From contig OZ024741.1 in the NCBI GenBank assembly GCA_964016885.1, positions 186,930,001 to 186,994,000 on the forward strand: a stretch of DNA of 64,000 bases, read 5' to 3'. The stretch's first letter is position 1; each line of letters starts with the position of its first letter. Source of the DNA: Eledone cirrhosa (Eukaryota). The position numbers and the translations under genes were made by a program. This document shows positions 8,643-35,543 of the stretch, piece after piece. Under the pieces are notes generated by a model. That model made no database searches. It was not told the DNA's origin and saw only the letters and a program-made list of their open reading frames with translations.

Positions 8643-9818
8643 ATATAGAATTCACAGGAATCAAAGCTATGTTGAAAGCATTTATTTGCTTACAATTGTT
8701 TCATCCAAACCGAGGCTTGGATCCTTCGGAGCATTTTTCAATGTTTGTATACATACATGACCTCCTTTCCAACGCAAGAGACATACAGATACATATGTAT
8801 ATATTGATGTACAGTGGGGTGTCATATATTATATTATTTCTGAATGGCAATTTAAATTCAAAAATTAAAATCACATTAAAACAGAATCAAAGCAAAATTA
8901 AAATTAAAATACAACATCAATGCAAATTTAAAATACAATCGGCAGTTAACGTAGTTAATACAAGGGGATAGTTTGTTAGTCAGTTGTAGTAGTTATTGTA
9001 TGCATTAGTTACACGTGTGGCATGCACGTATGTCTTATTTATATATGATTATTGTTCGGCAGGGTATTATATGTAATACAAGCACTTTAAGCGGGTAATC
9101 AAGAGTATTATGGAGGTTGTAGTGGTAGGGTATTTTTTGTATATGATAAAGAAGCTTGTGTGCAGAAAAATAGTATAAATGAGAAGCAAAAAAATGTTAT
9201 GGTTTTTGTATACACCACCATTTTCACATTCAGGAAACGTAATATATAGTTTATATGTCCTTCACATAATTAACGATGATTCCGAATTGGATGTTTAATG
9301 TATTAAGTTAAATTATTATAGCTTGTTGCGGCTCAGTGTTCTTTAATCCAATTTTATAGAGCAGGTTGTTTCTGTTGCGAGAATTTACATCGTTTTATTA
9401 TCCGGAAGTATGTGTGTGATTAAGGGGAGTTAATGAGTGAGGGGAGAAGTAACTAGCTGATTTCTATAATTAAATTTATTATTCCAACATACATTAAAAG
9501 GTGTCTCAATTGAGTCCCTTATATATACGGTTATATACAGTTTCTAAAAATTTAAGTATCCTATCTTTAATTACAGTCTACTTTAATGTGATTTTAATTT
9601 TTGAATTTAAATTGCCATTCAGAAATAATATAATATATGACACCCCACTGTACATCAATATATACATATGTATCTCTATGTCTCTTGCGTTGGAAAGGAG
9701 GTCATGTATGTATACAAACATTGAAAAATGCTCCGAAGGATTCAAGCCTCGGTTTGGATGAAACAATTGTAAGCTAATAAATTCTTTGAACATAGCTTTG
9801 ATTCCTGTGAATTCTATA
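8643..9818. mobile_element. PLE-like remnant with about 240 bp inverted terminal repeats (8643-8882 / 9580-9818), each with a hammerhead-like motif (8688-8732 -, 9730-9774 +)
   Basis: GCT-CCGAAGG-ATCCAAGCC-tc-GGTTTGGAT-GAAAC-AATT-GTA-AGC; arms differ at several positions. Confidence 0.7.
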
Positions 9819-10479
9819 TATATATATATATATAGTTTGTTCAAATGATCTGGGGGTTCTTTTTTTGTTTTGGAGTATTTTTTGCGAACATGCGCACATT
9901 AAAGCTTCACAAACACCAATCAAAAGAATGTCATTTGTTCCTTCTTTGTATGTATAAGGATGTTGGCCGCACGCGTAAACAGAATGATCTTTGTCACTTA
10001 TTTGCAAAGTTCTTATTATTCGAGCGTTATTATTAATTCAATTTAAATCTAAATTGAAAATAAGTCTCTTCAAATTCTCTATAAAGGAACGAAAACTAAG
10101 GTGAACTTGGAAACATATATTTACTTATTCATTTCATACTTAAATCTTTATCTTTTCCGTTTCTTGGCAATATCATTAAAGAAATACACAGGTCACAGTT
10201 TCGAGTTAAATGAAAAGAAAGAATTGAAAAATAGGTGATCGTAATATGGAACCCAGCTTACTTCAAGGTTTTTCTTTTCATTGCTGATACTCTCTGCCAG
10301 GATTTATATCCGACATATATTATCTGCAATGGATAGACAAATGGGAATATTGTTTCCTTAATCCGATTTCACCATCGGCTCTTCTTATTTTAGTTCCTAT
10401 TATTCTTAAGAATAATCAAAATTTGGAGCGATATATAAAAATATCTATTTATTTATATTAATCTAATGTTTAGAATGTA

Positions 10480-10975
10480 ACATGCGCAGGCCAGTTCCCC
10501 CGACAAGCCAGTTCCTCAACGACATATGGAGAAGAAGCCTGGACGCAGCTGGCTTTCCATCTCAACTGGAGCCAGCAGGCCTAGACAGCGGAGATGGCAA
10601 CCGCCCCGACGGGATCACCCTCTTCCCATTCGAAGAGGGTAGATTCCTCATCTGGAACGCCACCTGCTACAACACGTTCTCTGCCTCCAACTTAGTCGCT
10701 TCGGCCACAAACCCCGGCATCGTAGCCCCCCCCCCCCCCTCGCAGAAGAAGGTAAAATAAACAAATACCGGGGTTTGTCCGACCACTTCCTCTTCGCACC
10801 AGTCGCCATCGAGACCTCAGGCATACTTGGACCCCCGCATGTAGGCCCAAGCCCAATCACCCTCCCCCTCTTCCCTCCTCTCTCTTCTGCGACACCAGAG
10901 CTCTTGCCATCTCTCCCTTTCCCGTTATTTTTCTTCTTTCTTTCCCTCTTTTTTTCTTTTTTCTTACTAAATAAG
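10480..10975 (+). mobile_element. CRE-clade non-LTR retrotransposon 3' fragment (restriction-like endonuclease)
   Basis: LNDIWRRSL...EPAGL..GDGNRPDGITLFPF...LIWNATC; then K..KY.GL...FAPVAIETSGILGP after a frameshift. Confidence 0.85.
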
Positions 10976-11624
10976 GTTTGTTTTTTACTTTTGAATAAAT
11001 TCGTTTAGCATGTAACTTAACAAACGTTTTTTTTTTCCATAATATCATGGTGGATTGTTTAGATTTAAATATAGATACCTTAAGTTATACGGTTTTGTAT
11101 TTTAGGACCGGAAGTGGTCTCAAGCGTGTTGCATGAAAAATTTGAAAACCTTATTAATTAGCAGATATTATTGAAACAATTCAAATCCCGCTGAGGTTAG
11201 TTTTGCTTTCCTCCTTATGGGTCCGATAAAATAAAGTACCAGTATTACACTGGAGTTGATTTAATCGACTTCCTCCCCCAAAATTTCTGGCCTTGTGCCT
11301 ATAATAGAAATCATTATTGAAACAACTCAGAAGGTCACCGACATATCTCGTCATTTCGAACATAGGATGGATGTGTGGTGTGAATCTTATACATTCGTAT
11401 CAAGCTCATGATACGAACCCACAATGACATATTTTATTTTATTTATATAAATATAATATATTTGCTGTTATTAATGGCAGCACAACTAGTTTGTGAGTAC
11501 ACGTACAATCCCGATATATATATATATATATATATATATATATATATATATATATATATATATATATATATATATATATATATATATATATATATATATA
11601 TATATATATATATATATGTATATA

Positions 11625-33070: not shown

Positions 33071-33725
33071 TATACCTTCATGCCAGATGATTGAACGTTT
33101 GAAAGTATATACTTTCCTTATGCATATTAACGGCTGAGCAGCCTAATTTGCATATCGAGTGAGTTAATCGGCCGGGGTACCGAAAACGATATACGGAAAA
33201 AATGAAACGAAGAGTACTAAGAGTGAGAAATGAAATTTCGTTTCAATTTTTCCGTTTATATTTATATGAATAAAAAAAGAACAGAATGGCTTCACTTGTA
33301 GTTGGCTTTCTATAACAATTTTACAATTTTACAATTTTCCTATAAACTTTCCACTTCGGGGAAAATTTTTATAAAATCCTTGTTAATTTTCTAACAAAGG
33401 ATTTATTAGATCTACATAGCAAAATTGTGCCATTGTGCCGTTGTAAAATTACAATTACATTACTTACTATAGTGGAATAGACAACTATTAATCTTTTGTC
33501 CAGCTATTACAACATGTTACAGCTGTTATATCTTTGTTTATCTGACACACAAAACTCCCTACGACTATATGCTTCGTAAACCTAATAATTCTAAAAATCC
33601 TATTTCACTCTATTCGCCTTTTCTCTACTTGTATCTGTTTTCTGCTTTCTTATATTATTTGCTAATATTCATTGTTCGCTAATATACTTGGTACGTGTTG
33701 TGCTGAATTAAATCTTTCTACTTTA

Positions 33726-33837
33726 CTCCTGAAGAATTAAATGTAAGTGTATATGCTATGTGAATAATTATTAATTAATTATAAAAGATTGATTCATTGT
33801 TTGCATGTCTATCACCTGTATAGAAACGATCATAGAG
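33726..33837 (+). ncRNA. Hammerhead-like motif with long helix II insertion (decayed)
   Basis: CTC-CTGAAGA-...-GAAAC-GATC-ATA-GAG; partial inverted copy at 36640-36798. Confidence 0.5.
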
Positions 33838-33944
33838 ATTACAGATGGATTTATTTTTAAAATCCTGGTTACTTAAATTTAAACTTATAAACACACACAC
33901 ACACACACACACACACATATATATATATATATATATATATATAA

Positions 33945-35543
33945 ATCAGGAAAGAAAGTTTACATGGTTTGCTATACAAAAAAGTTTTTAATCACATAGC
34001 TTACATTTGTTTCACTGAACTGGTCTGTCTAGAGATCGCTATCCGCCTAATTTTGCGTCACTCGATCGCCAATACAGAATTATAACCAGTCAGATCTTCG
34101 GCGCATGCGAGAATGAAGAAAATACACAGGCAAGAAAAGAAAATATGGAGTAGTTATGGCATTCAATTAGAACAATAACAACAACAATTATTACAACAAT
34201 GCTATCAATAAACTATTTAAGGAGACCCTGACATTACTTAGGTGGGGGGTATATAATGTATCTATTGTTACGGCGTGAAAACCAGCTGTCATAAGGCAAA
34301 AAGTATCGTAGTGTGTATCAATTTTAAATTATAAAGATAAGCTAGTTTTTACAGTCTTTCTCTTCATCTTCAACAGTATACATGAGTGGGACCACTGTCA
34401 AAGCTCAATAGTTGCAGAGTTAATACAGAGGTTAACGAATTAATATACGCATATATCTACGCACACACACACACACACACACACACACACACACACACAC
34501 ACACATATATAAATATATATACACATATATGTGTACATAGACACATACATACACATCAATATACACTCGTACAAAAATATACATACATGCAAAGAGAAAA
34601 GCGTGCTAGTTGTAATTATGGCAAAAAGAAGGTAAAGTAACATTGTAGTAGTGAAAAACTAGGATCTAGGATCAAATGATTGCAGCAGCTGAGAAGGAGT
34701 AAGATTGTTGGTAGATGAGGTATTTACAGACAATTGTGTGGTATAGATTTGTGAAGGAAATAGTATACTTAATGAATATATTTCTGTGGGTAGTAGGTAT
34801 CCTAATTTAAAGCTATGTTATGTTGGTTCGATTCACGGAGGTTTGAATCTTATGAATTTAGTGGCTATTCTATGTCTGCAGAAGATAGATCTTTCTAACT
34901 TATTATTAAGTAGCCTTTTAACATTTCTAAGGATATACAATAGCTCAAGATCACACAGCCCGCAATAGGACATCCCTGTACTATAGGTTTTAGCAGCCGA
35001 CAACTTCGACCAGTTGATAGTGTAGCTAGCGTTGCTGTCCTTCAATTCCCATATTTTTCTGGCGAGGGTGGTGGAACCCATAAGTGCTCGGTTTTTCATG
35101 TATACTGTTGAAGATGAAGAGAAAGACTGTAAAAACTAGCTTATCTTTATAATTTAAAATTGATACACACTACGATACTTTTTGCCTTATGACAGCTGGT
35201 TTTCACGCCGTAACATTAGATACATTATATACCCCCCACCTAAGTAATGTCAGGGTCTCCTTAAATAGTTTATTGATAGCATTGTTGTAATAATTGTTGT
35301 TGTTATTGTTCTAATTGAATGCCATAACTACTCCATATTTTCTTTTCTTTTCTTGCCTGTGTATTTTCTTCATTCTCGCATGCTCCGAAGATCTGACTGG
35401 TTATAATTCTGTATTGGCGATCGAGTGACGCAAAATTAGGCGGATAGCGATCTCTAGACATACCAGTTCAGTGAAACAAATGTAAGTTATGTGATTAAAA
35501 ACTTTTTTGTATAGCAAACCATGTAAACTTTCTTTCCTGATTT
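33945..35543 (-). mobile_element. 5'-truncated PLE: endonuclease C-terminus between about 440 bp inverted repeats (33945-34384 / 35097-35543), each with a U4C hammerhead (33999-34104 -, 35382-35487 +)
   Basis: ORF 34833-35099 TTLARKIWELK...YTINW...YCGLCDLE...LLNNKLE...CRH; motif GCT-CCGAAGA-T-CTGACTGGT...ACCAGTTCAG-T-GAAAC-AAAT-GTA-AG(C/T). Confidence 0.88.

What the first reader, a model, noticed from the sequence alone, without database searches (positions are those of the whole stretch)
8688..35487. Recurrent non-canonical core CCGANG(A/G) (U4C) in at least three unrelated hammerhead families
Seen: CCGATGA at 27847 (5-bp helix I, 9-bp helix II foot, ACACGTGT helix III, GUC); CCGAAGA in both arms at 33999-34104 and 35382-35487; CCGAAGG in both arms at 8688-8732 and 9730-9774; weaker CCGATGA...GAAACAGTA at 30934. 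The helices are preserved, the change creates a CpG (opposite to normal decay), and it is present in both arms of each duplication, so it predates insertion. U4 is highly conserved in canonical hammerheads. Inference: a lineage of U4C hammerheads with attenuated or altered activity that strict-consensus searches would miss.
Basis: partly seen in the sequence, partly recalled or inferred. Interest (0 to 1): 0.75.

Follow-up and report, generated by a model that had tools for sequence, protein, structure and literature searches.

The report
Retroelement hammerheads with relaxed core U4
The flagged motifs are the hammerhead-shaped RNA ends of three related, very abundant jumping-gene families in which nearly every copy has C where textbook hammerheads have U; sister families keep U or carry A, so this letter is likely dispensable for a slow self-cutter, which is untested and would help show what these motifs do for such elements.

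Summary
Five of the six flagged motifs are real. They are type I hammerhead folds at the 3' ends of three families (A, B, C) of Hydra-clade Penelope-like retroelements. The sixth (30934) is single-copy, lacks helix II, and is chance. C4 is the family state, not decay: 51/52, 50/50 and 26/28 copies; genome-wide about half of hammerheads of the two shapes counted carry C4 (12,056 matches against 952 in the control for one shape). Family B has intact 808-codon frames, so C4 elements spread recently. Three corrections. (1) The families are related: they sit in one Hydra subclade. (2) They do not form a C4 lineage: U4 sisters are nested among them (at least 5 changes), and a related family is fixed for A4. 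(3) The CpG argument fails: CpG sites decay no faster here. G5, A6, the 3-8 pair, A9 and G12-A14 persist and the helices covary across families. Best reading: a fold under selection that likely cleaves slowly, as a dimer or with protein help. Cleavage is untested. U4C is known from a viroid; I found no report for Penelope elements, but one key paper was unreadable. This scan noted the same variant before on other DNA.

The parts
8608..9585 (-). Family A Hydra-type Penelope-like element, 5'-truncated 3' end (3' UTR, hammerhead, tail), next to (TA)n
   Evidence: 94% over 991 nt to the 3' end of a near-full-length A copy, L184; family A endonuclease ends about 1,540 nt upstream of the core in L181, L182, L184
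8687..8733 (-). Family A hammerhead: core C3-G9 at 8729-8723 (C4, private A9G), G12 at 8702, N17 at 8691, palindromic helix III
9582..9820 (+). Inverted partial copy of the family A end (second arm)
   Evidence: inverted repeat I3, 255 nt, 95%
9730..9774 (+). Family A hammerhead, second arm: core 9733-9739 (C4, A9G), G12 9760, N17 9771
27196..28005 (+). Family C Hydra-type element, 5'-truncated 3' end between (TA)n tracts
   Evidence: 95% over 823 nt to L187; family C endonuclease about 840 nt upstream of the core in 16 of 16 loci
27842..27962 (+). Family C hammerhead: core 27847-27853 (C4, A9), A.A at 10.1-11.1, 92-nt helix II arm, G12 27946, GUC with N17 at 27957, 5-bp helix I
33933..35099 (-). 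Family B Hydra-type element, 3' part: last 88 codons of the GIY-YIG endonuclease (35099-34836), 3' UTR, hammerhead, tail
   Evidence: 100% to residues 721-808 of the 808-codon frame in L189
33999..34104 (-). Family B hammerhead: core 34101-34095 (C4), G12 34013, N17 34002; this copy has lost the 2.1-1.1 pair
35096..35721 (+). Family B second arm: 3' UTR part, hammerhead, tail, then the 5' leader of the next unit (partial tandem)
   Evidence: 99% to L189; inverted repeats I2 and I6
35382..35487 (+). Family B hammerhead: core 35385-35391 (C4), U.U at 10.1-11.1, 81-nt helix II arm, G12 35473, N17 35484
30934..30960 (+). Chance match to the core words; not a hammerhead
   Evidence: no helix II, no homologue, single-depth contig

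Best explanation
These are hammerhead-shaped motifs at the 3' ends of three related Hydra-clade Penelope-like retroelement families in which C4 is the inherited family state, and they likely still cut their own RNA, but slowly and only as a dimer or with help from the element's protein. Shown: the motif sits 0.7-1.5 kb downstream of a reverse transcriptase plus GIY-YIG frame and about 50-80 nt before the element's end; position 4 is U, C or A in different successful families of one clade; the other core positions and the helices are kept. Inferred: a tandem transcript (as in L189, two motifs 3,527 nt apart) would pair the two palindromic helix III strands and be cut after N17 to give a unit-length RNA; because insertion would be primed on RNA near the tail and need not wait for cleavage, selection asks only for some cleavage, so the U4-to-phosphate hydrogen bond can be weakened (C, possibly protonated) or lost (A). 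The window's own copies are truncated; the A and B pairs are inverted and would fold back on themselves, so they are likely inert.
For: C4 in 51/52 A, 50/50 B, 26/28 C copies and 35 of 35 motifs in loci picked by protein alone (29 of 30 loci had one). Counts C4/U4/purine-4 for one shape: 12,056/13,559/3,373 against controls 952/2,932/2,836. U4 copies within family A are about as rare as G5A copies (16 of the first 100 of 1,797; about 74 of the first 100 of 230; counted by eye). 8 of 150 scored B matches lie in stop-free 808-codon frames. U4 sisters nested among C4 families: K beside C, B' beside B/J. A4 family: 25 of 27 anchors. U3-A8 covariation in two related families. Helices pair beyond shuffles in 33 motifs chosen without a helix filter (88 vs mean 65, max 84; 113 vs mean 90, max 102). 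In contigs of two runs, 28 of 111 positions vary but none of 13 core positions (p 0.018). Published: U4C lowers activity yet leaves a viroid infectious (PMC3088659); PLE hammerheads are slow and dimeric (PMC4209133); a PLE hammerhead is protein-assisted and not needed for insertion in vitro (PMC11167929).
Against: No cleavage was measured, and no RNA data were available. In a mutational scan of a type III hammerhead all single mutants of the CUGA turn had low activity (PMC9901934). Within family A there is no covariation above shuffles (126/500 and 105/500). Family B's helix III self-duplex is weak (-0.7 kcal/mol against -6.4 and -10.3). The window's A copy was inserted from a template with A9G, so an intact core was not needed for that event. 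The fixed A4 family shows the elements can thrive with a further departure. Many copies counted were picked by similarity or by pattern. The tree cannot tell gain from loss of C4, and the node joining all C4 families has only 87/88 support.
Confidence: 0.6

Rival explanations
1. The motif no longer needs to cleave. It is kept as a folded handle that the element's reverse transcriptase/endonuclease binds to start reverse transcription near the tail.
For: Hammerhead-dead mutants of a Poseidon element still insert in vitro, and no RNA-seq reads ended at its cleavage site (PMC11167929). U, C and A all succeed at position 4; an A9G template was inserted; N17 is U in several families.
Against: G5, A6, A9, G12-A14 and A15.1-U16.1 are retained across families whose endonucleases are 37-47% identical, and the 3-8 pair switches as a pair, C-G to U-A. 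That is the signature of the catalytic fold, while helix II length ranges from 11 to over 95 nt.
Confidence: 0.2
2. C4 is a nearly full substitute: a protonated cytidine rebuilds the U-turn hydrogen bond, so C4 hammerheads are about as active as their U4 sisters, and C and U interchange freely.
For: A protonated C replaces U in other U-turns, and U-to-C is the only tolerated change in two of them (PMC4105743). C and U alternate between sister subfamilies, and purine-4 is near background for the GAAAC shape.
Against: U4C 'considerably decreases activity in vitro' (PMC3088659); the fixed A4 family, missed because of its different helix III, shows pyrimidine is not required. The passages of PMC4105743 that I read do not test a hammerhead.
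Confidence: 0.15
3. The C4 motifs are decayed or chance sequences carried along passively.
For: True for 30934. The window's five real copies are truncated and three carry private core or helix defects.
Against: C4 is fixed in young families with intact frames, in more than ten thousand copies, with covarying helices.
Confidence: 0.03

Closest known systems
Hydra clade of Penelope-like elements and their hammerheads (Craig et al. 2021, PMC8557442; section 11, passages, supplement parts 1-2 read)
   Same: C-terminal GIY-YIG, RWK, DKT, CxCX5C, CxxC and CxH motifs, (TA)n insertion, type I hammerhead near the 3' end with palindromic helix III; U10.1.U11.1 mismatch in 14 of 25 listed families.
   Different: All 25 Hydra families in File S2 have CUGANGA. 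Here many families are fixed for C4, one for A4 and two for U3-A8; helix II arms reach 80-95 nt; B is longer (808 codons, 3.5-kb unit).
Minimal and palindromic-helix III hammerheads of metazoan PLEs (Cervera and De la Pena 2014, PMC4209133; parts 1-2 of 4 read, supplements not read)
   Same: Location in pLTRs, short helix I, long helix II, palindromic helix III implying dimer cleavage, inverted pairs 100-700 bp apart, U3-A8 variant.
   Different: No position-4 variant in the text read; G10.1-C11.1 is described as highly conserved there but is a mismatch in A, B and C.
Natural U4C hammerhead of a viroid (as cited in Perreault et al. 2011, PMC3088659; passages and section 8 read)
   Same: Same core change; lower activity in vitro but enough in vivo.
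   Different: A rare variant in a viroid, against a fixed family state in over ten thousand retroelement copies; Perreault's genome search discarded any core mutation.
Protonated-C (C+NR) U-turn (Gottstein-Schmidtke et al. 2014, PMC4105743; passages read)
   Same: U-to-C at the first position of a U-turn with function retained.
   Different: Shown for a riboswitch loop, not for a hammerhead; does not explain the A4 family.

Membership tests
Hydra-clade PLE | Single ORF with RT and C-terminal GIY-YIG endonuclease | tested here: met
   808-codon frame in L189; homologous frames for A and C; 79 homologues at 31-46% identity. Pfam gave no hit; domain names rest on motifs and on comparison by eye with the published Hydra sequences.
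Hydra-clade PLE | RWK and DKT motifs | tested here: met
   RVRWKAY and KADKTSN in the family B frame; DKT also in a frame piece of an A locus. Not read for family C.
Hydra-clade PLE | CxCX5C linker, CxxC and CxH in the endonuclease, no CCHH | tested here: met
   Alignment A1 including A, B and C endonucleases; definition
Hydra-clade PLE | Insertion into (TA)n; tandem and inverted partial copies | tested here: met
Hydra-clade PLE | Placement in the Hydra clade in a tree with named reference PLEs | not tested
   The published Hydra proteins were seen in a supplement but were not in my tree; outgroups were database homologues
Hydra-clade PLE | Canonical CUGANGA hammerhead | tested here: not met
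   C4 in A, B, C against 25 of 25 U4 in File S2; a described trait, not the clade's protein definition
Type I hammerhead ribozyme | Three helices around the core in type I order | tested here: met
   helix III predicted only as an intermolecular palindrome
Type I hammerhead ribozyme | Core C3, G5, A6, G8, A9, G12, A13, A14, A15.1-U16.1, H17 | tested here: met
   Family majority; the window's A copies have A9G
Type I hammerhead ribozyme | U4 | tested here: not met
   C4 fixed
Type I hammerhead ribozyme | Paired 10.1-11.1 | tested here: not met
   Paired in 6 of 33 motifs and 4 of 16 family representatives
Type I hammerhead ribozyme | Self-cleavage after N17 | not testable with these tools
   Needs a bench assay or raw RNA reads

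The most novel reading that the evidence does not exclude
In one radiation of Hydra retroelements the hammerhead U-turn base has become a tuning position: sister families repeatedly swap U4 and C4 (and once A4), with C4 working through a protonated cytidine or the element's protein, and slowed cleavage is favoured because it leaves uncut tandem RNA for insertion. About half of this genome's hammerheads would then be invisible to standard searches.
Probability: 0.2. Interest if true: 0.72.

Novelty: new variant of a known kind. Interest (0 to 1): 0.45.

Why it matters
What Penelope-element hammerheads are for is open: they are nearly universal in these elements, slow in vitro, and dispensable for insertion in the one reconstituted system read here. 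This genome offers matched natural pairs (C with K, B with B', and an A4 family) that differ at one core position and have all spread. Measuring their rates would show how much cleavage such an element needs and whether the consensus should read CNGANGA for this clade. It also means CUGANGA descriptors undercount genomic hammerheads here by about half for the shapes counted.

Tried and rejected
Rfam: no hammerhead family among the 150 of 209 matches listed for the window or in three motif-sized scans. Pfam gave nothing for the 808-codon frame. RNA evidence: no RNA holder listed; the runs laid are contigs, and X1/X2 may be this DNA's own source, so they are not independent. Covariation inside family A was not above shuffles. 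The 16-family covariation test (61/64 vs 39.3; 56/64 vs 35.6) used representatives that had passed a helix filter, so I rely on the unfiltered set. 'Position 4 is pyrimidine-only', suggested, was rejected. 'C4 resists CpG decay' was rejected (columns with over 30% minor letter dropped; close copies only); transposons are also reported unmethylated in an octopus (PMC9476566, abstract only), relevant only if the host is a cephalopod, which I infer from genome size and repeats and did not test. 'One C4 lineage' was rejected (19 of 40 aligned rows used, short and redundant rows left out; H' and J rest on single loci). 30934 was rejected. Lunse et al. 2017 (RNA Biol, PLE hammerhead variants) and a recalled hammerhead mutagenesis review were not held; the first, and the unread supplements of PMC4209133, could already show C4.
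Full report
Observation. The five motifs at 8729 (-), 9733 (+), 27847 (+), 34101 (-) and 35385 (+) are present as described and fold as type I hammerheads with C at position 4. The A and B pairs are the arms of inverted repeats. The motif at 30934 has no helix II, no homologue in 1.29 Mb of fetched loci and lies on one single-depth contig; it is chance. Rfam models do not detect the real motifs.

What carries them. Each motif is the 3' end of an abundant repeat (1,376-2,188 candidates). 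Upstream lie frames with a reverse transcriptase and C-terminal GIY-YIG endonuclease, about 765 nt (B), 840 nt (C) and 1,540 nt (A) before the core. The family B frame in L189 is 808 codons and has RWK, DKT, CxCX5C, CxxC and CxH and no CCHH, the features that define the Hydra clade (PMC8557442 section 11). L189 is a partial tandem with two motifs 3,527 nt apart. Eight of 150 scored matches lie in stop-free 808-codon frames, so family B spread recently. The window's copies are 5'-truncated ends; B retains the last 88 codons at 35099-34836. The genome is 3.0 Gb and microsatellite-rich; no call names the host.

C4 is the family state. It is present in 51 of 52 A, 50 of 50 B and 26 of 28 C copies (close copies, partly picked by similarity or pattern) and in 35 of 35 motifs in loci picked by protein alone. 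Genome counts for a tight pattern are 6,173 with C4 (control 6), 1,797 with U4 (control 5; mostly another family) and 230 with G5A (control 4). For a looser short-helix II pattern they are 12,056 C4, 13,559 U4 and 3,373 purine-4, against controls of 952, 2,932 and 2,836. For long helix II arms there are 14,682 matches (control 123), 50 of the first 100 with C4 by eye. All 25 Hydra families in the published table have U4.

The families are related, and C4 is not one lineage. In protein trees A, B, C and further C4 families (D, H, J) fall in one subclade together with U4 families: K is sister to C (97/94), B' groups with B and J (99/99). At least 5 changes are needed among 13 labelled families and C4 monophyly is rejected (p-AU 7e-41). 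DNA trees with position 4 masked show the same alternation among subfamilies. Direction is unresolved. A family in the next enclosing clade (100/98) is fixed for A4 (25 of 27 anchors; four copies lie in this window), and two related families carry U3-A8.

The fold is under selection. In 33 C4 motifs chosen by position with no helix filter, helix I and helix II pair well above shuffles; across 16 families pairs change on both sides (filtered set). In contigs of two runs, N7, 10.1, 11.1, N17 and many helix II positions vary, but none of 13 core positions reaches 3% (p 0.018; U4 relatives appear there only as a loose end). Against this, family A alone shows no significant covariation. The 10.1-11.1 mismatch is common (paired in 6 of 33) and is already seen in 14 of 25 published Hydra motifs, so it is not tied to C4.

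CpG transitions are not elevated in these copies (7/1127 against 154/10448). The G9 in the A pair is a private change shared by both arms, with A9 in 47 of 51 copies; it implies that a template with a damaged core was inserted.

Mechanism. Established: U4 bonds to the phosphate between A6 and N7, and U4C lowers activity in vitro while leaving a viroid infectious (PMC3088659); all single mutants of this turn were weak in a type III scan (PMC9901934); PLE hammerheads with palindromic helix III cleave slowly and as dimers (PMC4209133; PMC6765202); one PLE hammerhead needs its protein and is not required for insertion in vitro (PMC11167929); a protonated C can rebuild a U-turn (PMC4105743). Computed: the helix III strands of A and C self-pair over 8 bp (-6.4 and -10.3 kcal/mol), B weakly (-0.7), and the monomer hairpin is unfavourable. 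Inferred: slow dimer- or protein-assisted cleavage is enough for these elements, so position 4 is relaxed while catalytic positions are kept (0.6). Rivals: non-cleaving protein handle (0.2); near-full activity through protonated C (0.15); decay (0.03).

Novelty. Searches for hammerhead with Penelope and U4C (20 of 44 listed), hammerhead ribozyme with U4C (one paper), and searches gave no report of fixed C4 cores in Penelope elements; only the viroid case appeared. Lunse et al. 2017 was not held, and the supplements of PMC4209133 were not read. Also seen: part 1 of 5 of 10.64898/2026.07.22.740005, passages of 10.1101/2022.01.19.477025 and the abstract of PMC9476566; none decides the matter. This scan has noted C4 Penelope hammerheads before in this and other genomes (unchecked AI notes). 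Verdict: a real new variant of a known kind, more modest than 'three unrelated families', and useful as a natural test set. Interest 0.45.

Noticed in passing
window 18009, 18986, 32538 (+) and 55782 (-): Four copies of a related Hydra family whose hammerhead is fixed for A4 (CAGAAGA core), with U.U at 10.1-11.1, a 4-bp helix III, U17 and 5-bp helix I. The 55782 copy lies just beyond the 602-nt inverted repeat I1.
   Followed up: partly
L004, L338 and L340 (downstream of Hydra endonucleases): Two families with a U3-A8 core (TTGAGAA): 4 of 4 and 2 of 3 anchors.
   Followed up: partly
window 33065 (-), 4392 (-), 4712 (+): Canonical U4 hammerheads of other families in the same window.
   Followed up: partly
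window 41863-47107 (-): Near-full-length, frameshifted LINE with ORF1-like frame, Exo_endo_phos and RVT_1 domains.
   Followed up: partly
window 2813-3394 (-): 194-codon piece that looks like the linker and start of a GIY-YIG endonuclease of another Penelope clade; no useful Pfam hit.
   Followed up: no
window 26349-26644 (-): Degraded Hydra reverse transcriptase fragment, 40-43% to family B.
   Followed up: no
all 16 C4 family representatives: The 2.1-1.1 pair is U-A in every C4 family, while U4 families elsewhere vary there; may be shared ancestry or a requirement of C4.
   Followed up: no
families B, J, H and others: Helix II arms of 57-97 nt are conserved and partly homologous between families; they could form a protein-binding or tertiary element.
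   Followed up: no
window 62079-62454 and 39028-39115: Long perfect hairpins (184-nt arms, 8-nt loop; and a (TA)n-centred palindrome) not examined.
   Followed up: no
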